Below, in pieces: positions 12,291 through 18,897 of a stretch of DNA of 24,000 nucleotides. The position numbers and the translations under genes are program-made. Where the stretch lies: assembly GCF_031312535.1 (NCBI RefSeq), contig NZ_CP133594.1, forward strand, positions 1,817,934 to 1,841,933, given 5' to 3'. The stretch is from Methanolobus mangrovi. Lineage in GTDB: Archaea; Halobacteriota; Methanosarcinia; Methanosarcinales; Methanosarcinaceae. The notes under the pieces were generated by a model that saw only the letters and a program-made list of their open reading frames with translations, ran no database searches and was not told the DNA's origin. Position 1 is the stretch's first letter, and the number at the start of each line of letters is the position of its first letter.

Positions 12291-13019
12291 ATGCGGGATT
12301 CAAATTCCAGGTTTGATGAAGTGAGTTGTACCAGCAATAATTCTGATAGGATAAAGTTAGTAGTTTTTGATATGGATAGCACCCTTATAGATGCTGAAAC
12401 CATTGACGAACTCGCACATGCCGCAGGAGTGGGAGACGAAGTCGCCTCTATTACAGAAAAAGCAATGCGTGGAGAAATTGATTTTTCCAATGCGCTTGTT
12501 GAAAGAGTCAGACTACTAAAAGGACTTACACTCGATGATGCTCATGCCGCGCTTGACAAAATGCCTTTTATGCCCGGTGCGAAAGTACTTGTCAATTACC
12601 TGAAATCCCGAGGTTATAAAACTGCAATGATCTCAGGTGGATTTACCATCGCTGCTGAGCGCGTTGGTGAAACACTTGGCATGGATCATGTGGTTTCAAA
12701 TGAACTACTGATAGACAATGGATGTCTGACAGGAGAAGTAAGGGGGCCCCTTACAGGACAATGCTCTAAGGAACATGTTCTTGAAGAAATCTCCCGAAAA
12801 TATGGATTAGAACCTGAAGAATGTATTGTAGTTGGCGACGGTGCCAACGACATATGTATTTTTAAAAGGGCAAGATATGCCATAGCATTCAATTCCAAAC
12901 CGATTCTCCATGAGCATGCTGATATTGTCATAACAGAAAAGAACCTTGAAGCAGTTATACCGGTTATCCAGTTGTTGGAATCGGAAAAAGGCCAAGTATC
13001 GTGCATTAGAGATGCATGA
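12291..13019 (+). CDS. serB: Phosphoserine phosphatase (HAD superfamily, SerB type)
   Basis: HAD motif I is VVFDMDSTLIDAETIDELA. It is followed by ITEKAMRGEIDF..AL..RV.LLKGL, ISGGF and VVGDGANDI, the classical SerB pattern. TGA stop at 13017-13019. Confidence 0.9.
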   Translation: MRDSNSRFDEVSCTSNNSDRIKLVVFDMDSTLIDAETIDELAHAAGVGDEVASITEKAMRGEIDFSNALVERVRLLKGLTLDDAHAALDKMPFMPGAKVLVNYLKSRGYKTAMISGGFTIAAERVGETLGMDHVVSNELLIDNGCLTGEVRGPLTGQCSKEHVLEEISRKYGLEPEECIVVGDGANDICIFKRARYAIAFNSKPILHEHADIVITEKNLEAVIPVIQLLESEKGQVSCIRDA

Positions 13020-13920
13020 AATGCCAGCTCTTTTGCTGGACCGGGAGGATAATAAAGAAATGATAAAAGAACTTAACGACAAGAAGACTGAGCTTAAGAC
13101 ACAGTCAGAAGAATACAAAGAGAAACGTAACGAGCTTAATGCAGAGGCAAGCACACTTGCATCAAAGCGCAATGAGCTGAACAAGAAGACTAAGGACCTT
13201 ATCAACGAAGCACAGGAATACAAGGTACTCCGTGACGAGAACAACGAAAAGGTAAAGGAATACAAGGTACTCCGTGATGAGGTCAACAACAAGGCAAACG
13301 ACGTATTTGCGAAGATAGACCAGATCCGCAATGAGAATAACCTTGGTGGACCTTCGATCAAAGACATACGCAAGGAGATCGACAGACTCGAGTTTGCACA
13401 GCAGACAGAAGTCCTCACAACCAATAAGGAAAGAGAATTGGTCAACAAGATCACTGAACTCCAGAAGCAATATGTTGTAAAGAAGCAGCAACTTGAAGGA
13501 AATGAAGAACTCAAGAAACTGCTGGACGATGCACAGGAGATCAGGGACGAAGCTTCAAATCATCACGCTACACTTTCAGAGTATGCACAGAAGGCACAGG
13601 AATATCATGACAAGATGATCACTACCTTCAAAGAAGCCGACAAGATTCGCGCAGAATCTGATGCTGCTCACAAAGAATTCGTCCAATTCCAGGAAAAAGC
13701 TGACGAACAGCACAAACTCTTCATTGCAGCACAGAAAGAGATCCGCGACATCGACAAGGAACTCCGCAAGATGAAGAAAGGAGATTTCGACGGTAAGAAG
13801 GAAGCTGCAAGGGCAGATGCACGCAAGGATGCAGAAGACATCTTTGACAATTTCAAGTCCGGTGGAAAGCTTACTATGGAGAACCTGATGGCACTCCAGA
13901 GATCAGGATTCCTAAAATAA
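13012..13920 (+). CDS. Archaeal coiled-coil protein (COG1340-like), K/E-rich
   Basis: The tracked ORF starts at 12946 inside serB. The first ATG after the serB C-terminus is 13012 (MHEMPALLL...), with an 8-nt overlap, and a second ATG sits at 13021. The protein is almost entirely heptad-like and charged (ELNDKKTELKTQSEEYKEKRNELNAEA...). A strong terminator follows. Confidence 0.7.
   Translation: MHEMPALLLDREDNKEMIKELNDKKTELKTQSEEYKEKRNELNAEASTLASKRNELNKKTKDLINEAQEYKVLRDENNEKVKEYKVLRDEVNNKANDVFAKIDQIRNENNLGGPSIKDIRKEIDRLEFAQQTEVLTTNKERELVNKITELQKQYVVKKQQLEGNEELKKLLDDAQEIRDEASNHHATLSEYAQKAQEYHDKMITTFKEADKIRAESDAAHKEFVQFQEKADEQHKLFIAAQKEIRDIDKELRKMKKGDFDGKKEAARADARKDAEDIFDNFKSGGKLTMENLMALQRSGFLK
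13215..13298 (+). repeat. Two tandem 42-nt (14-codon) units inside the coiled-coil gene
   Basis: Unit 1 spans 13215-13256 and unit 2 spans 13257-13298. The first 21 nt are identical (GGAATACAAGGTACTCCGTGA) and 36 of 42 positions match by hand count. The units encode EYKVLRDENNEKVK / EYKVLRDEVNNKAN. Confidence 0.8.
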
Positions 13921-13930
13921 TCAAAATTTA

Positions 13931-13982
13931 GAGGGTGATATTCACCCTCCTTTCAACTGTTTTTTGTTGAAACTTTTTTTTG
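13931..13982. terminator. Bidirectional terminator region between convergent genes (two hairpins plus T-tracts)
   Basis: The first hairpin is GAGGGTGA-tat-TCACCCTC (13931-13949). The second is TTTCAAC-tgtttttt-GTTGAAA (13951-13972), followed by T8 (13974-13981). The reverse strand shows equivalent hairpins followed by T-rich sequence. Confidence 0.65.
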
Positions 13983-13989
13983 AACAATA

Positions 13990-15135
13990 TTATTGTTCCA
14001 GTCCAAGGTGGACAGTCCTAAAATCAGAATCCCTCATTAGACAGGGGCCTGAAGTGAAAACAGGATCTTTGTATATATTTTTCCATATGGAAGCCAGGCT
14101 TTCCTCATGGATGTTACCATATGGTTTTGGCATGCATGCACATGGAAGTACATCCCCCTCAGGAGTTACATGAAGCCATTTTCTGCCTGCAAAACATCCC
14201 ATTTTCCTTATGATCTGAGGAATCGGGAAAACACGCGGCCCTTCAGCATGAGAAGTGCGCTCCACGAAATCATCGAACTTTTTCAGGCCTTCGGCTGAGA
14301 GGACTTCTTTTTCATGACCCAGCCATCTGCCGGTTGGGACTATTTCATAGAAAGAAAGTTCATGCACACCGAGTTTCTTTGCAAGCTCATAGAATTCGTC
14401 AAGTTCATCAACATTCCTAGGTGACAGAACAACGTAAATGCCAACCAGCAAGCCTGCATCCAGACCATTCTTTATGGCATTGACAGCATCATTGAACACG
14501 CCCGGCCTTCCACGCATGTAATCGTGACCTTCTTCATTTGCGCTGTCAAGGCTTACACTGAGCATGGAGAGACCCGCATTCTTAAGACTCAATGCACGCT
14601 GCGGAGTCATGCCAACACCGGACGTAAAAAGGCCCGGAATTGCGCGGGATTTGTCAACATAACTTATGAGATCCTCAAGGCCATCATATAACAGAGGTTC
14701 TCCACCATCAAATATAATGAGAGTTGTACCCATCTTCTGGGTTTGATCGATCACACTTTTCACAGCATCCGGACTGAGCCTTGCTTTGTTCTTAGTATCA
14801 GGAAGAGCACAGTGTATGCATCGGTTCGGGCACTCCTCTGTAATTGAAATTGTGATCTGTTCCGGAACGAATTTTCCCCTCATCGCACTCATCTGGCTTG
14901 AAACAAGCCTGTCAAATGCCTTGCTGGGTATAGGAGGCATCCAGGTGGAGTATATCAACTGGTCCTTTTCCACTTTAGAGGGTTTTGTATCCTCAAATAT
15001 CCCCATCATTTCCGAAACGTAAGAACCCATGATAGAGGAAGCAATACCGGAGGTTTTCATTTTTACCCGGTCATCCTCTATCTGGGCATAGACCTTGAAA
15101 AATGGATTCCTGTAAAAGTAATACTTGTTCTTCAT
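13990..15135 (-). CDS. Radical SAM enzyme with about 100-aa N-terminal extension and C-terminal SPASM/twitch-like Cys cluster
   Basis: 381 aa. It has the CxxxCxxC motif ITEECPNRCIHCALPD and a GGEPLL motif (IIFDGGEPLLY). The C-terminal cysteines run GCFAGRKWLHVTPEGDVLPCAC...GPC (C-x17-C-x-C...C). The ATG lies 3 nt after the stop of the upstream flavoprotein gene. Confidence 0.85.
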   Translation of the reverse strand: MKNKYYFYRNPFFKVYAQIEDDRVKMKTSGIASSIMGSYVSEMMGIFEDTKPSKVEKDQLIYSTWMPPIPSKAFDRLVSSQMSAMRGKFVPEQITISITEECPNRCIHCALPDTKNKARLSPDAVKSVIDQTQKMGTTLIIFDGGEPLLYDGLEDLISYVDKSRAIPGLFTSGVGMTPQRALSLKNAGLSMLSVSLDSANEEGHDYMRGRPGVFNDAVNAIKNGLDAGLLVGIYVVLSPRNVDELDEFYELAKKLGVHELSFYEIVPTGRWLGHEKEVLSAEGLKKFDDFVERTSHAEGPRVFPIPQIIRKMGCFAGRKWLHVTPEGDVLPCACMPKPYGNIHEESLASIWKNIYKDPVFTSGPCLMRDSDFRTVHLGLEQ

Positions 15136-15138
15136 TGC

Positions 15139-16296
15139 TCACTTCGTCCTGAAGATAGCCCTGTATGAAAGTATAGATGAAGGGTTATTTTTCAATATCA
15201 TTTTTGATACCTGTAATGCCTGGTTAAAAGGAGTTCCGCCAAGAACCTTCAAATCCTCTCCTTCAAAGACCTTCATAAGCTCATCAATCTCTTTATCATT
15301 CATTTTCCTGAGAGTCTCCATGGCAAACCTTCCAAGGTAGTACTCAGTCCTGTATGCGGCATTCCAGCGTTTCCTGTATTCCGAAAGGAAACTCTTTGAC
15401 AGATTACCTTTGGCAATTGCATCGGCAGCAACATCCCCACACATCTGGCCTGCATGCATCCCGTATCCTATACCTGACTGGGCAGCAGAACCACCGGTAA
15501 TCATGACGCCGTCAGCGACTATCTCACCTGGAATTGCAACTATAGGATCACCACCTACAGATTTACTGATGATCTTTACTTCATCAAGCCCTTTTAATGT
15601 CTTGAACTTTTCAAGCCATGCATCGAAGAAATCAGAAACATCCTTTCCATGCCTGCGGACATACATACCAAGAGTTGCCCTGTTGCCACCACATGGAGAA
15701 TAAGTGGATTTCCACCCTGGTGCATGGTTGCCCACGTAATATTCGAACATATCAGGCTCCCCAATGCCTTCAGCCTCTATCTCCGCTTCAAGTGACCAGG
15801 CAATGTCCTGAGGATATTTGATAGGTTTCATACCCAGAAGGGCACCTATCCTGGAATTTATACCATCTGAAACAATAACTAGCTTACACTTTATCTTTCC
15901 TTTTGAGGTGCTTACTGTGAAAACGCCATCTGAACGCAGAACATTAAGAACTTCGATTCCGAAGCGAACGTCTACACCTGCTTCTTCTGCCTGGCGAATG
16001 TAAAATTCATCGAATTTCTTCCGGTCAAGGAAATAAGCATCGCCTTCAAAAATGACATTCTTGCCGGATGGTGCTATTATATAGGCACCTTTGAGATTCT
16101 TAATAACATAACTCTGGTCAACTTCCTCGCCTGTCCGGTCAAACATCCCTTTGAAAAAAGTGTTTGCCGGATGAGTAGGTACACCTGCGGCTTCTTTTTT
16201 ATCGAGAAGGAGTACTTTGCAGCCTTTAGCTGATGCATTCCGTGCTGCCATGACCCCTGCAGGGGAAGCCCCTATTACAATGATATCTGCATCCAT
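15139..16296 (-). CDS. FAD-dependent oxidoreductase of the geranylgeranyl reductase (FixC/ChlP) family, divergent
   Basis: 385 aa. The N-terminal dinucleotide fold is DIIVIGASPAGVMAARNASAKGCKVLLLDKK. GGR-like middle segments are present (LDRKKFDEFYIRQAEEAGV, LVIVSDGINSRI). GAGGT SD lies 7 nt upstream of the ATG, 16 nt after the UbiA gene stop. Confidence 0.8.
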   Translation of the reverse strand: MDADIIVIGASPAGVMAARNASAKGCKVLLLDKKEAAGVPTHPANTFFKGMFDRTGEEVDQSYVIKNLKGAYIIAPSGKNVIFEGDAYFLDRKKFDEFYIRQAEEAGVDVRFGIEVLNVLRSDGVFTVSTSKGKIKCKLVIVSDGINSRIGALLGMKPIKYPQDIAWSLEAEIEAEGIGEPDMFEYYVGNHAPGWKSTYSPCGGNRATLGMYVRRHGKDVSDFFDAWLEKFKTLKGLDEVKIISKSVGGDPIVAIPGEIVADGVMITGGSAAQSGIGYGMHAGQMCGDVAADAIAKGNLSKSFLSEYRKRWNAAYRTEYYLGRFAMETLRKMNDKEIDELMKVFEGEDLKVLGGTPFNQALQVSKMILKNNPSSILSYRAIFRTK

Positions 16297-16312
16297 TTTG
16301 AACCTCGTGAAG

Positions 16313-17269
16313 TTACCATAAGATACCGGAGTATGCCGGTACGAGTATGCAAAGTATTACATCAAGTATGAGAGAACCAAACATGACACCTCTGTATCTT
16401 GAGCCCTGAAGGAACAGTTGTCCGCCACGCTGCTCTGTCGGATTCTTTATAAAATCGAATGATTGTGTAAGTATCCAGCCACCTGCCAGCAGTGCACCTG
16501 CAAAGTATATAGGACCTATCTTTGCAGTAATTCCGATGGCTATGGAAGCTATTATTCCTACTACCCACATTAGAGTTACAAACCTAGAGGTTGCCGGAAC
16601 TCCGTATGTTACCGGAAAAGTCGGTGCGCCCCTTGCCCTGTCGCCTTCTACATCCCTTGCAACACCGGACAGAGTGAAACCCCAGTCAGTGAAACACATC
16701 ATCAAGCCAAGGAATATAGCAGGGAGTGGGAGTATTGAACCATAGGAAGGTTCCTTGAGAATCCCTGCCGGATCGAATGCCAGCCAGATACCTATAGGTA
16801 CAAGTCCGTAAGCTATCCCCACAGGTACGAAACTAAGAAATGTCAGCCTTTTTGCAAGTTTTGAGTATATACTTATAGTGACGACTGCTATCACCAGCAC
16901 CACAAAAGATTCAGGATTAAGATAGAGAGCTGCCACACTTGCTATTAAAAACAACAGACCTGCATACTTCATAGCCTGTCCGCGACTTAGCTTATCAGAC
17001 ACCAACGGACGGTTTGGAAGGTTTATCTGATCAATATCAACATCACAACAGTCATTATATACATAAGAACTTGTGATCGCTGCATACCCTCCGATAACAG
17101 CTATGATGAAAAGAATTGGGTCCGGCAGTACCCCTATTGTAAGATAGGATGCCAGCAGAGCACTCGCTGCAGGAAGGGCTAAATCCATATCCGCTATCTC
17201 CGGCCTTAACATTTCCAGATAGGGATTTCTCGTTTTTGAACCTGAAGTGGAAACCAAGTATATCACCAA
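16313..17269 (-). CDS. UbiA-superfamily aromatic/isoprenoid prenyltransferase (polytopic membrane protein)
   Basis: 318 aa with about 8-9 hydrophobic segments. The first Asp-rich motif is NDCCDVDIDQINLPNRPL and the second is ARDVEGDRARG. The tracked start is TTG 17269. The conserved YLEMLRP helix requires a start upstream of the first ATG. Confidence 0.85.
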   Translation of the reverse strand: MVIYLVSTSGSKTRNPYLEMLRPEIADMDLALPAASALLASYLTIGVLPDPILFIIAVIGGYAAITSSYVYNDCCDVDIDQINLPNRPLVSDKLSRGQAMKYAGLLFLIASVAALYLNPESFVVLVIAVVTISIYSKLAKRLTFLSFVPVGIAYGLVPIGIWLAFDPAGILKEPSYGSILPLPAIFLGLMMCFTDWGFTLSGVARDVEGDRARGAPTFPVTYGVPATSRFVTLMWVVGIIASIAIGITAKIGPIYFAGALLAGGWILTQSFDFIKNPTEQRGGQLFLQGSRYRGVMFGSLILDVILCILVPAYSGILW

Positions 17270-17371
17270 TAGATTATAGCTCCTAATTTCCAGTATCGTA
17301 TATTAGTATTAGGGTGGTCTGACTAAAAATGAGTCATACAGGTCTAAAATAAAAAATAATTGGACAATAAG

Positions 17372-17412
17372 AACCTGAGTATCAGATGATAATCAGGTTT
17401 TATTTCCTTTTT
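17372..17412 (-). terminator. Hairpin with flanking T-tracts downstream of tgtA
   Basis: AACCTGA...TCAGGTT forms a 7-bp outer stem (17372-17378 / 17393-17399), with an inner TATCA/TGATA stem. T-rich runs follow on both strands (TTTATTTCCTTTTT on plus, TTATTTTTTATTTT on minus). Confidence 0.4.
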
Positions 17413-17427
17413 GAGATGAGATCGACT

Positions 17428-18897
17428 TCACTCTTTTTGGGAAGAGACAACTGTAAAGTTATCCATCTTTTCGAGTTTTTCAACAAGAGGATGCCCTAAT
17501 TTGTCCTGCATCAGGAAAGTGAACTTTGCATTGGGGTTCAGCTCCACAAGCCTGATAGTGTTCTCATAAGCACTCTCGAGGGATTCATAATCAGGAGTTC
17601 TTACAATTTCCGCATTGAACGGATAAACCTCTGCAAGTTCCTGCGGATAAGACCCGAATGGTGGTTTGAATATCAGGACGTTGTCATAATCACTGTCCCT
17701 TTTTGTCGGGTAAGTCCTTATCAAAGCCGAACCTTCTATGGTGAACCTTTCAAGCTGCCTGTTAAAGCGCAGGACTTCCGGACGTTTGGCAGACTCAGGA
17801 CCACAATAGAAGAATGTAGATTTGGATGAAGGGTCACACTCTTCCATCCATGGAGAATATGTGTACATCTGCTTAAGGGCTTCAAGCATTCGTGGATGAG
17901 CACGGCATCTCTGCTCTACAAGTTCAAGGAGATTGCCTTCCCATATAGCCTGTTTGACCTCACGAACCTCTTCAAAAGTCACATAAAGGTTGTGCCTGGC
18001 AAGAAGCTCGGTGCAGTTGTGGGCCGTTTTCAGTTCTTCCGCTGTGTGAGTCATACATACCGGACAGGAACATGGCAGGTATTTGAGCTTGTCCACATGA
18101 TATGTTCCTCTTGAAGTAATGTAACGCCTGTCCTTTGCATAGAGCGCATATGCAGCAGAATCGAAGAGATCACATCCAAGGGCAACGGCCAATGCGAACA
18201 TCATCGGGTGTCCGGCACCAAAAAGATGGACAGGTGCTGTAGGGTCGAGTCCTTTTTTAGCAGAAGCAATTACATCTACAAGATCGGCATAACGGTAGGA
18301 TTCCATCAGTGGAACCACAGCTCCGAATGGATATACATCAAAACCTATTTCTGAAAGCTCACGGGCACACTCCTCCCGGAGATCCTTGTAAATAGCACCC
18401 TGCACAGGACCTGCCAGAAGCATGTCACCTTTCACAAGTTCCCTTGCTTCCTTGAGACGCTGTATTGTAATATCCATATCTTCCTTTGCCTTTTCATAAG
18501 ACACGTCAGGATGTGTAGGAATATCCAGAGGAACGCCTATATCTGTTCCTATTTTTTGCTGGAAATCAATGATCATTTCATTAGTGACCTCCACTTCACC
18601 ATAGACTGATAACTGGAATGAACCGGAATCGGTCATGAGAGGACCATCGAAATCAAGAAGTGCATGAAGACCATCTTTGAGAGCCTTCTCCCTTAATTCA
18701 TCCTTACGGTAGATAATGTATGAGTTGGTGATAAGTATCTCAGCACCGAACTCCCTCATCTCGGAGGGTTTTATTGTCTGGATATTAGGATTAATGACAG
18801 GCATTACAGTAGGAGTTTCAACCACTCCGTGTGGAGTTGTCAGCTTACCGATACGCCCTGCTGCATCCTTATGAATTATATCAAATTGTGATGACAT
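17428..18897 (-). CDS. tgtA: Archaeosine tRNA-guanine transglycosylase (tRNA-guanine(15) transglycosylase)
   Basis: 489 aa. The N-terminus is DAAGRIGKLTTPHGVVETPTVMPVINPN. Further TGT motifs are LMTDSGSFQ, GVPLDIP, LFGAGHPMMFALAVALGCDLFDSAAY and the zinc motif CSCPVC..H. The length suggests the version without a full C-terminal PUA region. Confidence 0.92.
   Translation of the reverse strand: MSSQFDIIHKDAAGRIGKLTTPHGVVETPTVMPVINPNIQTIKPSEMREFGAEILITNSYIIYRKDELREKALKDGLHALLDFDGPLMTDSGSFQLSVYGEVEVTNEMIIDFQQKIGTDIGVPLDIPTHPDVSYEKAKEDMDITIQRLKEARELVKGDMLLAGPVQGAIYKDLREECARELSEIGFDVYPFGAVVPLMESYRYADLVDVIASAKKGLDPTAPVHLFGAGHPMMFALAVALGCDLFDSAAYALYAKDRRYITSRGTYHVDKLKYLPCSCPVCMTHTAEELKTAHNCTELLARHNLYVTFEEVREVKQAIWEGNLLELVEQRCRAHPRMLEALKQMYTYSPWMEECDPSSKSTFFYCGPESAKRPEVLRFNRQLERFTIEGSALIRTYPTKRDSDYDNVLIFKPPFGSYPQELAEVYPFNAEIVRTPDYESLESAYENTIRLVELNPNAKFTFLMQDKLGHPLVEKLEKMDNFTVVSSQKE

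What the first reader, a model, noticed from the sequence alone, without database searches (positions are those of the whole stretch)
13990..17269. UbiA prenyltransferase, divergent GGR-family flavoprotein and radical SAM operon: candidate isoprenoid cofactor or lipid tailoring pathway of unknown product
Seen in sequence: three minus-strand genes are tightly coupled, with a 16-nt gap carrying a GAGGT SD and then a 3-nt gap. A promoter-like AT-rich region lies upstream and a strong bidirectional terminator lies downstream. The products are a membrane UbiA-family prenyltransferase (NDCCDVDID and DVEGDRARG motifs), a GGR-family FAD enzyme and a radical SAM enzyme with an auxiliary Cys cluster. 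Established knowledge: UbiA enzymes attach polyprenyl chains to aromatic or glycerol acceptors, and GGR-family enzymes saturate isoprenoid double bonds. Methanosarcinales make methanophenazine, a 2-hydroxyphenazine ether-linked to a partly saturated pentaprenyl chain, and its biosynthetic genes remain largely unassigned. From memory, a GGR paralog with unusual regiospecificity in Methanosarcina acetivorans has been proposed to act on that side chain. Inference: prenylation plus selective reduction plus a radical SAM step is the enzyme set one would expect for methanophenazine or another prenylated redox cofactor. A non-canonical membrane-lipid modification is the alternative. I cannot establish orthology or product from sequence alone.
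Basis: partly seen in the sequence, partly recalled or inferred. Interest (0 to 1): 0.65.

Follow-up and report, generated by a model that had tools for sequence, protein, structure and literature searches.

The report
Candidate methanophenazine biosynthesis operon
Three tightly packed Methanolobus genes (a membrane prenyltransferase, an atypical flavoprotein and a radical SAM enzyme) occur in just those methanogen relatives that lack menaquinone genes, which makes them testable, still unproven, candidates for the unknown pathway to the electron carrier methanophenazine.

Summary
Three minus-strand genes (UbiA 16313-17269, GGR-like flavoprotein 15139-16296, radical SAM/twitch 13990-15135) are separated by 16 nt (GAGGT) and 3 nt and end at a hairpin plus T-tract. 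None reaches a curated family cut-off. The genome's DGGGP synthase, AhbC and AhbD are other genes.

- **Class Methanosarcinia (392 genomes):** strong matches occur in all Methanosarcinaceae, two other Methanosarcinales families (one matching contigs labelled ANME-2), Methermicoccus and Methanotrichaceae.
- **Complementary pattern:** matches are missing from Methanoperedens, a GoM-Arc1-type family and relatives, which alone carry the futalosine menaquinone genes. No genome has both.
- **Outside the class:** the UbiA was found in two further families and in none of about 315 other Halobacteriota genomes sampled.
- **Larger system:** two paralogous radical SAM genes lie elsewhere, one beside geranylfarnesyl-diphosphate synthase. 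In Methanonatronarchaeia and small-genome MAGs, three to four radical SAM genes and the flavoprotein form one cluster, which in at least two of them also holds a divergent UbiA.

Best reading (about 0.6): part of methanophenazine-type carrier biosynthesis. No product evidence exists. The flavoprotein lacks the canonical catalytic Cys, and the radical SAM role is unknown. The scan noted this operon before on other Methanolobus DNA.

The parts
16313..17269 (-). UbiA-superfamily membrane prenyltransferase (318 aa from TTG 17269; alternative starts 17257 and 17212)
   Evidence: PF01040 scores 142.9 bits. It is below every NCBIfam curated cut-off; the best is PRK12884 at 112.5 against 269. Both Asp-rich motifs and at least 7 hydrophobic segments are present. 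The orthologue group is sharply bounded.
15139..16296 (-). Divergent GGR-family FAD protein ('GGRL', 385 aa)
   Evidence: TIGR02032 scores 125 bits, below the 158.8 cut-off. PDB 3oz2 matches at 3.4e-28. Clade-specific motifs PANT, APGWK[SA]TYSP and GG[AS]A[GA]Q replace the catalytic Cys, YxWxFP and GDAA.
13990..15135 (-). Radical SAM enzyme with a ~90-aa N-terminal beta3-alpha domain and one twitch-type auxiliary cluster (381 aa)
   Evidence: PF04055 and PF13186 match. No NCBIfam equivalog is reached; NirJ2 scores 132 against 500. There are 7 Cys only. The AF2 model has pLDDT 86.5. The nearest folds are SkfB, SuiB, BlsE, CteB, PqqE and MoaA.
16302..16306 (-). GAGGT Shine-Dalgarno-like element, 5 nt before the GGRL start
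   Evidence: Sequence read.
13930..13950 (-). Terminator-like hairpin followed by a T-rich tail, shared with the convergent gene
   Evidence: z = -4.7.
17270..17427 (-). AT-rich intergenic region between tgtA and the UbiA gene (presumed promoter; not tested)
   Evidence: Sequence read. The tgtA-UbiA-GGRL-rSAM order is conserved across Methanosarcinaceae.

Best explanation
The three genes are one transcription unit. It belongs to a larger, dispersed gene set that makes the methanophenazine-type membrane electron carrier of Methanosarcinia and a few related lineages.

Proposed mechanism, all steps inferred:
1. The UbiA enzyme transfers the C25 geranylfarnesyl chain from geranylfarnesyl diphosphate onto the hydroxyl of 2-hydroxyphenazine or a reduced or earlier precursor. 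The chain is made by the GFPS orthologue elsewhere in the genome. This is an O-prenylation of the DGGGP-synthase type.
2. The GGR-like flavoprotein then saturates the double bond of the isoprene unit next to the ether oxygen. From memory, that unit is the only saturated one in methanophenazine.
3. The radical SAM enzyme is one of three ancient paralogues, helped by a fourth PTO1314-like radical SAM enzyme. These build or tailor the redox head group without oxygen, much as MqnE and MqnC do in the futalosine route to menaquinone.

Shown here: operon structure, family placement, distribution, and gene linkage across lineages. Inferred: substrates, order of steps, and product.
For: **1. Operon.** Gaps of 16 and 3 nt with a shared terminator.

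**2. Distribution in class Methanosarcinia (392 genomes).**
- Strong matches (E < 1e-60) occur in 176/176, 20/20, 27/27, 3/3 and 105/105 genomes of five families, plus one Methanoperedenaceae-labelled MAG.
- Only paralogue-level matches or none occur in Methanoperedens (49 genomes), a GoM-Arc1-type family and relatives.
- Four of these families were named by exact look-up: Methanosarcinaceae, Methermicoccus, Methanotrichaceae and Methanoperedens. The GoM-Arc1-type assignment is mine, from the record name 'Methanoperedenaceae archaeon GB37'.

**3. Complementarity with menaquinone genes.** MqnA/D (PF02621) is present in 56 genomes, all in the families without the trio, and in 0 of 332 genomes with it. 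PMC5244752 states that Methanoperedens encodes the futalosine pathway and that its enrichments lacked methanophenazine.

**4. Outside the class.** The UbiA orthologue was found only in families f11 and f34. It was found in 0 of about 315 other sampled Halobacteriota genomes. Across 185,579 species genomes only 277 stretches matched.

**5. Gene linkage.**
- All pairwise adjacencies occur somewhere: UbiA-GGRL in f4, UbiA-rSAM in Methermicoccus, GGRL-rSAM in f11, and all three in Methanosarcinaceae, one Methanoperedenaceae MAG and f34.
- Paralogue rSAMp1 lies directly after the GFPS orthologue in Methanolobus, Methanothrix and f11.
- In Met12 and two 'Methanocellales' MAGs, four radical SAM genes and GGRL sit in one cluster, joined in Met12 and G444 by a divergent UbiA and an NMT1-like protein. 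Ca. Methanohalarchaeum keeps two of the radical SAM genes near GGRL.

**6. Other assignments excluded.** DGGGP synthase, AhbC and AhbD are other genes.

**7. Literature.** The pathway is described as undeciphered apart from GFPS (PMC8546582, PMC6315138, PMC3017947).
Against: - There are no chemical, genetic or expression data.
- Kin are not independent. The complementarity with Mqn rests on perhaps two or three evolutionary events.
- Family f4, whose UbiA-GGRL layout recurs on contigs labelled ANME-2, has the trio but no separate GFPS orthologue (0/20). It has a single GGPS-like gene.
- f11 and f34 carry the genes, but no clear NarI-type HdrE cytochrome b was found in them.
- GGRL lacks the Cys thought to act in canonical GGRs, so it may not be a reductase.
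- GGRL and the radical SAM family also occur where the UbiA orthologue is missing and only a very divergent UbiA sits in the cluster.
- Authors of a M. acetivorans Rnf/MmcA study proposed a UbiA-domain gene for methanophenazine synthesis. The text gives no usable locus tag, so it may be another paralogue.
- Methanophenazine has been demonstrated chemically only in Methanosarcina, as far as I know (from memory). Its presence in the other lineages is assumed.
Confidence: 0.6

Rival explanations
1. The genes make another prenylated small molecule or cofactor that is not the respiratory carrier. One example would be a peptide- or amino-acid-derived cofactor matured by twitch/SPASM radical SAM enzymes, as in PQQ or mycofactocin, and then prenylated.
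For: - The radical SAM enzyme's nearest sequence and fold relatives are peptide or cofactor maturases: SkfB, SuiB, CteB, PqqE and MftC-type models.
- It has an N-terminal three-strand plus helix domain, reminiscent of a peptide-recognition element.
- f11 and f34 carry the genes but show no clear HdrE.
Against: - No conserved small ORF lies next to the compact clusters. The conserved upstream stretch is conserved in several reading frames at once, as non-coding DNA would be; it looks tRNA-like.
- This reading does not predict the strict complementarity with menaquinone genes.
- Linkage to the C25 synthase points to a long membrane anchor.
Confidence: 0.17
2. The genes tailor a membrane lipid: a non-canonical ether lipid made by a DGGGPS-like transferase, a GGR-like saturase and a radical SAM C-C or C-H modifying enzyme.
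For: - The closest characterised relatives of the first two proteins are lipid enzymes: DGGGP synthase 6m31 at 4e-15 and DGGGPL reductase 3oz2 at 3e-28.
- Radical SAM enzymes do modify archaeal lipids. A weak Tes match was seen for the PTO1314-like paralogue.
Against: - Canonical DGGGPS and four canonical GGRs are encoded elsewhere.
- The set was not found in Methanoperedens. From memory, that genus shares archaeol and hydroxyarchaeol lipids with its relatives.
- The distribution follows the absence of the menaquinone route rather than lineage (Methanoperedenaceae are split).
Confidence: 0.12
3. The genes prenylate a tetrapyrrole, giving a heme O-like cofactor for the cytochromes of these methanogens.
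For: - The UbiA superfamily includes heme O synthase. One database record names an orthologue 'protoheme IX farnesyltransferase'.
- The radical SAM enzymes are distant relatives of AhbC, AhbD and NirJ.
- rSAMp1 lies beside CcmE and the Ahb heme cluster in this genome.
Against: - The heme O synthase model scores 79 bits against a cut-off of 210.
- AhbC and AhbD are separately present.
- Cytochrome-rich Methanoperedens lacks the set.
- The link of rSAMp1 is to GFPS, and it is kept in Methanothrix and f11.
Confidence: 0.04

Closest known systems
Futalosine (Mqn) menaquinone pathway: MqnA/MqnD (binding-protein fold), MqnE/MqnC (radical SAM), MqnP (UbiA prenyltransferase), with a MenJ-type side-chain reductase in some bacteria
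   Same: - The logic is the same: radical SAM enzymes, a UbiA-family prenyltransferase and a GGR-family flavoprotein. In the compact clusters a periplasmic-binding-fold protein is added.
- The two systems replace each other phyletically inside Methanosarcinales.
   Different: - No protein reaches any Mqn or MenJ model cut-off: MqnP 63.6 against 430, MenJ 34.3 against 700.
- The binding-fold protein is NMT1/SsuA-like, not PF02621.
- The radical SAM enzymes are twitch/SPASM type. No match to an MqnC- or MqnE-type model appeared among their listed hits.
Archaeal ether-lipid pair: DGGGP synthase (PDB 6m31; NF009521) plus digeranylgeranylglycerophospholipid reductase (PDB 3oz2; TIGR02032)
   Same: These are the closest solved relatives of the first two proteins. 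The chemistry would be the same kind: O-prenylation followed by saturation of the allylic ether unit.
   Different: - Both proteins score below the curated cut-offs.
- Canonical copies exist elsewhere in the genome.
- GGRL lacks the catalytic Cys, GDAA and YxWxFP motifs.
- A radical SAM partner is not part of the lipid pair.
Geranylfarnesyl diphosphate synthase of Methanosarcina mazei (MM_0789; from memory PDB 3ipi), the only enzyme experimentally tied to methanophenazine
   Same: Its orthologue in this genome (NF040627 340.8 bits; 3ipi 8e-88) is directly followed by a paralogue of the operon's radical SAM gene. That pairing recurs in Methanothrix and f11.
   Different: - It lies about 1.79 Mb from the operon.
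- It is not found in family f4, which still has the trio.
Twitch/SPASM radical SAM enzymes (AhbD/NirJ, BlsE, PqqE, MftC, SkfB, SuiB, MoaA)
   Same: A CX3CX2C core plus a C-terminal auxiliary-cluster domain. These are the best fold matches.
   Different: - No equivalog cut-off is reached.
- There are only four auxiliary Cys.
- A family-specific N-terminal domain is conserved across three paralogous groups.

Membership tests
UbiA prenyltransferase superfamily (PF01040) | Pfam gathering score reached | tested here: met
   142.9 bits against a cut-off of 34.2.
UbiA prenyltransferase superfamily (PF01040) | Two Asp-rich motifs (NDxxDxxxD and DxxxD) in a polytopic membrane protein | tested here: met
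   NDCCDVDID at residue 72 and DVEGD at residue 206, with at least 7 hydrophobic 19-mers. The motif residues are invariant in 12 orthologues.
DGGGP synthase (NF009521 / NF009522) | Curated equivalog cut-off reached | tested here: not met
   84.2 against 296 and 79.9 against 353. A different gene of the genome scores 373.3 against 296.
Quinone and heme prenyltransferases (MqnP, UbiA, heme O synthase) | Curated cut-offs reached | tested here: not met
   MqnP 63.6 against 430; ubiA_proteo 58.7 against 275; cyoE_ctaB 79.4 against 210.
Geranylgeranyl reductase family (TIGR02032) | Subfamily cut-off reached | tested here: not met
   125 against 158.8. Four other genes of the genome score 225-245 bits.
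Geranylgeranyl reductase family (TIGR02032) | N-terminal FAD-binding dinucleotide fold | tested here: met
   The sequence VIGASPAG aligns with the GxGxxG region of 3oz2 and of the canonical paralogues.
Geranylgeranyl reductase family (TIGR02032) | Conserved Cys near the flavin, plus the YxWxFP and GDAA motifs | tested here: not met
   The Cys position reads HPANT, YxWxFP reads GWKSTYSP, and GDAA reads GGSA with a 6-residue deletion. These changes are conserved in all 10 orthologues.
Radical SAM superfamily with SPASM/twitch domain | CX3CX2C motif and a Cys-rich C-terminal auxiliary domain | tested here: met
   CPNRCIHC at residue 102. PF04055 82.6 bits and PF13186 36.1 bits. Four auxiliary Cys indicate the twitch type.
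AhbC / AhbD / NirJ heme radical SAM enzymes | Equivalog cut-offs reached | tested here: not met
   NirJ2 132.5 against 500, AhbD 123.2 against 500, AhbC 96.1 against 650. The true AhbD (598.8) and AhbC (731.1) are elsewhere.
Methanophenazine biosynthesis (no defined family yet) | Loss of the gene abolishes or alters methanophenazine; the enzyme acts on a phenazine or its precursor | not testable with these tools
   Only distribution and linkage could be tested.
Methanophenazine biosynthesis (no defined family yet) | Present in methanophenazine-type lineages; absent from menaquinone users and from methanogens without membrane carriers | tested here: met
   332 genomes carry the trio and 56 carry Mqn, with no overlap, in 392 class genomes. 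The UbiA was found in 0 of about 315 other sampled Halobacteriota genomes.

The most novel reading that the evidence does not exclude
This operon, the GFPS-linked and KaiC-linked radical SAM paralogues and a PTO1314-like radical SAM enzyme together form the long-sought methanophenazine pathway. In it the phenazine head group is assembled anaerobically by radical SAM chemistry, independent of the bacterial phz genes, and is then O-prenylated and partly saturated. The one-locus version in Methanonatronarchaeia, Met12 and 'Methanocellales' MAGs would be a portable cassette for the whole carrier.
Probability: 0.35. Interest if true: 0.9.

Novelty: new variant of a known kind. Interest (0 to 1): 0.72.

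Why it matters
**The open question.** Methanophenazine is the membrane electron carrier of the methanogens that use acetate and methyl compounds, and probably of ANME-2 methane oxidisers. The searched literature still calls its biosynthesis undeciphered, apart from the C25 prenyl synthase.

**What these genes would give**
- A defined gene set would make the question testable in the genetically tractable M. acetivorans (AAM07762-AAM07764).
- It would give genomic markers to tell methanophenazine users from menaquinone users in uncultured archaea.
- It could reveal an oxygen-independent route to a phenazine.

Tried and rejected
**Readings tested and rejected**
- The UbiA as the only DGGGP synthase. 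Another gene is the DGGGP synthase.
- The GFPS-adjacent paralogue as AhbC, placed there only because of the neighbouring heme cluster. AhbC and AhbD are other genes, and the GFPS pairing recurs in Methanothrix and f11.
- A ThiC gene inside the f34 cluster as a pathway member. It is a genuine ThiC, scoring 562 bits against a cut-off of 410.
- A 339-aa gene between the UbiA and a KaiC-like gene in some ANME-2-type MAGs as a new pathway member. It is a PRK06052 methionine-synthase-like protein and stands alone in this genome.
- A precursor peptide upstream of the compact clusters. The conserved stretch is conserved in several reading frames at once, so it looks like non-coding, tRNA-like DNA; nearby is a ThiS/MoaD-like small ORF.

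**Checks that gave nothing usable**
- Linking GGRL to the published M. acetivorans GGR with unusual regiospecificity. No locus tag could be confirmed: 'MA1492' gave no paper, and only citations of Ogawa 2014 were found.
- HdrE as a positive marker in f11 and f34. The result was inconclusive.
- RNA evidence for co-transcription.
- Fold search of the radical SAM model. It returned only generic twitch/SPASM relatives.


Full report
**Observation**

- radical SAM, 13990-15135
- GGR-like flavoprotein, 15139-16296
- UbiA, 16313-17269

The UbiA stop is followed by 16 nt containing GAGGT and then the ATG of the flavoprotein gene. That gene's TGA is followed by 3 nt and the ATG of the radical SAM gene.

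Downstream, a 9-bp G+C-rich hairpin with a T-rich tail sits between the operon and a convergent gene. It folds far better than shuffled sequence (z = -4.7). The 158-nt region upstream is AT-rich. No archaeal promoter tool was available.

Motifs are as stated:
- UbiA: NDCCDVDID and DVEGD, in a protein with at least seven hydrophobic segments.
- Radical SAM: CPNRCIHC plus exactly four more Cys, that is, one twitch-type auxiliary cluster.

**Family placement**

Pfam places the proteins in UbiA, the FAD/GGR fold and Radical_SAM plus SPASM. None reaches a curated NCBIfam cut-off:

| Protein | Best models (score against cut-off) |
|---|---|
| UbiA | PRK12884 112.5/269; DGGGPS 84/296; MqnP 64/430; heme O synthase 79/210 |
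| Flavoprotein | GG-red-SF 125/158.8 |
| Radical SAM | NirJ2 132/500; AhbD 123/500; PqqE 99.5/381 |

The genome is a 2.62-Mb single-contig Methanolobus. It holds three other UbiA genes, one of which is the DGGGP synthase at 373 bits against 296. It also holds four canonical GGRs and true AhbD and AhbC genes. The trio therefore does not duplicate lipid or heme functions.

**The flavoprotein**

I call it GGRL. Aligned with the solved DGGGPL reductase 3oz2 and with the genome's own GGRs, it keeps the FAD fold but differs at three signature sites:
- the Cys-containing loop reads HPANT;
- YxWxFP reads APGWK[SA]TYSP;
- GDAA reads GG[AS]A[GA]Q, with a six-residue deletion.

All ten orthologues from seven families share these changes. 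This is a conserved subfamily, not decay.

**The radical SAM enzyme**

An AlphaFold model built on 13 orthologues has pLDDT 86.5. It shows an N-terminal three-strand plus helix domain, the partial TIM barrel and a twitch domain. Foldseek finds only generic relatives: SkfB, SuiB, BlsE, CteB, PqqE, MoaA and viperin.

**Distribution inside the class**

A concatenated query was run over 392 genomes of class Methanosarcinia. Only the two best candidates per genome were scored, so these figures show that a strong match exists, not that all three genes are present.

| Result | Families (genomes with a match / genomes searched) |
|---|---|
| E < 1e-60 | f1 176/176; f4 20/20; f5 27/27; f7 3/3; f8 105/105; one genome of f6 |
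| Only E of about 1e-31 to 1e-38, or none | rest of f6, plus f2 and f3 |

Exact-sequence look-ups named representatives:
- f1 contains M. acetivorans C2A (UbiA AAM07762, GGRL AAM07763, radical SAM AAM07764).
- f7 is Methermicoccus shengliensis.
- f8 contains Methanothrix thermoacetophila.
- f6 genus g29 is Ca. Methanoperedens nitroreducens.
- f3 is 'Methanoperedenaceae archaeon GB37', which I read as GoM-Arc1 type.

f4 and f5 were not named directly. The f4-type UbiA-GGRL arrangement recurs on contigs labelled 'ANME-2 cluster archaeon'.

Per-gene searches in representatives show that all three genes, and both extra radical SAM paralogues, are present in f4, f5, f7, f8 and f11.

**Complementarity with menaquinone genes**

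MqnA/D (PF02621) occurs in f2 1/1, f3 5/6 and f6 50/53. It occurs in 0 of 332 genomes that carry the trio. The single f6 genome with the trio lacks Mqn.

PMC5244752 reports that Methanoperedens encodes the futalosine pathway and that its enrichments lacked methanophenazine. Related genomes are not independent observations. I estimate two or three independent events behind the pattern.

**Outside the class**

In a sample of 401 Halobacteriota genomes the UbiA orthologue (45-67% identity) was found in two further families, and in none of the other roughly 315 genomes from more than 30 families:
- f11, MAGs labelled Methanocellales;
- f34, tar-biofilm Halobacteriota MAGs.

The best paralogue matches are weaker than 1e-29, so the orthologue group is sharply bounded. 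A pattern scan of 185,579 species genomes found 277 relatives. The 80 listed are Methanosarcinia or these MAG groups, apart from three oddly labelled contigs (bacterium, Anaerolineales, Nanoarchaeia). Those three carry the UbiA next to the GGR-like or radical SAM gene as archaeal contigs do, and are probably mis-binned.

f11 and f34 lack Mqn.

**Gene linkage**

| Lineage | Arrangement |
|---|---|
| Methanosarcinaceae | tgtA-UbiA-GGRL-rSAM, then a convergent DUF7121 gene |
| f4 and ANME-2-labelled contigs | UbiA-GGRL |
| Methermicoccus | UbiA-rSAM |
| f11 | GGRL-rSAM |
| f34 | UbiA-rSAM-GGRL |
| Methanothrix | genes scattered |

Every pairwise adjacency therefore occurs in some lineage.

**The wider radical SAM family**

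The genome has two full-length paralogues of the radical SAM gene, including the N-terminal domain.
- rSAMp1 (41% identity) directly follows a polyprenyl synthase. That synthase's best matches are the methanogen GFPS model (340.8 bits) and PDB 3ipi (8e-88). The same GFPS-rSAMp1 pair occurs in Methanothrix and f11.
- rSAMp2 (39% identity) follows a KaiC-like ATPase gene.

A maximum-likelihood tree shows an rSAMp2 clade, and a clade in which the trio gene and rSAMp1 are sister groups.

GFPS orthologues follow the trio in most families: f1 171/176, f5 22/27, f7 3/3, f8 96/105, and the one f6 genome that has the trio. They are not found in the Mqn lineages. They are also not found in f4 (0/20), which has one GGPS-like gene only.

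**A one-locus version**

GGRL is more widespread than the UbiA orthologue. It also occurs in four further families:
- f13 3/3 ('Methanosarcinales archaeon Met12', 1.07 Mb);
- f18 4/4 (includes Ca. Methanohalarchaeum thermophilum, Methanonatronarchaeia);
- f20 7/7 ('Methanocellales archaeon' MAGs);
- f22 3/4 ('Methanocellales archaeon' MAGs).

One representative each of f13, f18 and f20 was checked and lacks Mqn; f22 was not checked.

In three of the six loci examined (Met12, G444, G416) the genes lie together as two divergent units:
- one strand: an rSAMp2-like gene, a trio-like gene and a PTO1314-like radical SAM gene;
- other strand: GGRL and an rSAMp1-like gene.

In Met12 and G444 these are followed by a very divergent UbiA. 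For Met12, Pfam scores it at 43 bits on PF01040 and identifies the next gene as NMT1/SsuA-like. The other loci are partial: G406 has the three forward-strand radical SAM genes plus GGRL, Ca. Methanohalarchaeum has two radical SAM genes near GGRL, and in G401 only GGRL was found.

The PTO1314-like gene has a 58%-identical orthologue in this Methanolobus genome, about 35 kb beyond the window.

This matches an earlier scan note on a seven-gene cluster (e1-2783714). It shows that the radical SAM paralogues, GGRL and a UbiA-type transferase work in one pathway.

**Interpretation**

The gene set is a prenyltransferase, a C25 synthase, a GGR-type flavoprotein and several radical SAM enzymes. It is confined to lineages that run, or are predicted to run, membrane electron transport without menaquinone. 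Inside one order it is replaced by the futalosine pathway. That fits biosynthesis of methanophenazine or a close analogue better than lipid tailoring or heme prenylation.

The literature available here describes the pathway as unknown apart from GFPS (PMC3017947, PMC6315138, PMC8546582). No paper assigning these genes was found. One preprint proposes an unnamed UbiA gene of M. acetivorans for methanophenazine synthesis, from expression data.

My mechanistic assignment is inference: O-prenylation by the UbiA, saturation of the first isoprene unit by GGRL, and head-group assembly or tailoring by the radical SAM paralogues.

**Caveats**
- There are no chemical, genetic or transcript data.
- f4 lacks a separate GFPS.
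- f11 and f34 show no clear HdrE.
- GGRL lacks the canonical Cys.
- From memory, methanophenazine itself has been characterised only in Methanosarcina.

**Earlier scan notes**

The scan noted the same operon before on other Methanolobus DNA, with a similar reading (e1-2457909, e1-2459475, e1-2458891). I re-tested its GFPS-paralogue claim, and it holds in this genome.

- the complementarity with Mqn genes;
- the naming of the lineages;
- the exclusion of AhbC, AhbD and DGGGPS;
- the link between the dispersed Methanosarcinia genes and the compact clusters elsewhere.

Noticed in passing
window 17428-18897 (-) and 12946-13920 (+): The flanks are conserved across Methanosarcinaceae. The archaeosine tRNA-guanine transglycosylase gene tgtA (TIGR00432, 648.7 bits) always lies upstream, and a convergent DUF7121 coiled-coil gene lies downstream. 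About 30 of 80 named loci show this order. No functional link is obvious.
   Followed up: partly
L023 (G000:C1:38000-56000): In this genome the GFPS-rSAMp1 pair sits next to CcmE and an Ahb heme cluster (AhbD, AhbA/B-like, a siroheme synthase part, GluTR, ALAD). Membrane-carrier and cytochrome cofactor genes are therefore neighbours.
   Followed up: partly
L199 (G396:C1:605000-623000), L202, L203; partial in L201 and L204: A compact cluster holds four radical SAM genes and GGRL, joined in L199 and L203 by a very divergent UbiA and, from Pfam on L199, an NMT1/SsuA-like binding-fold gene. It occurs in 'Methanosarcinales archaeon Met12' and 'Methanocellales' MAGs, and in reduced form in Ca. Methanohalarchaeum. 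A stretch conserved in all reading frames (tRNA-like) and a ThiS/MoaD-like small ORF lie just upstream.
   Followed up: partly
L022:1480-2454 (G000:C1:~1876450-1877424): A PTO1314-like radical SAM gene lies about 35 kb from the window. It is 58% identical to the fourth radical SAM gene of the compact clusters. It sits next to cbiM and has no assigned function.
   Followed up: partly
G022, G014 (family f4; UbiA-GGRL layout as on ANME-2-labelled contigs): This family keeps the UbiA-GGRL pair and all three radical SAM paralogues. It has only one GGPS-like polyprenyl synthase and no GFPS orthologue (0/20). This suggests a carrier with a different chain length, or a bifunctional synthase.
   Followed up: partly
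L078 (G622:C270:2000-16640): Tar-biofilm Halobacteriota MAGs carry UbiA-rSAM-GGRL-ThiC followed by a second UbiA. That second UbiA is closer to the trio UbiA (32%) than to DGGGPS.
   Followed up: partly
L170, L130, L134: In some Methanosarcinales or 'Methanobacteriota' MAGs, the UbiA is followed by a PRK06052 methionine-synthase-like gene. Next comes the orthologue of the KaiC-like ATPase that precedes rSAMp2 in Methanolobus. This is a weak hint that the KaiC-like protein belongs to the system.
   Followed up: partly
L112, L159, L174: Contigs labelled 'bacterium Yes70-06', 'Nanoarchaeia archaeon' and 'Anaerolineales bacterium' carry the archaeal UbiA-GGRL or UbiA-rSAM arrangement at 51-70% identity. 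They are probably mis-binned archaeal contigs.
   Followed up: no
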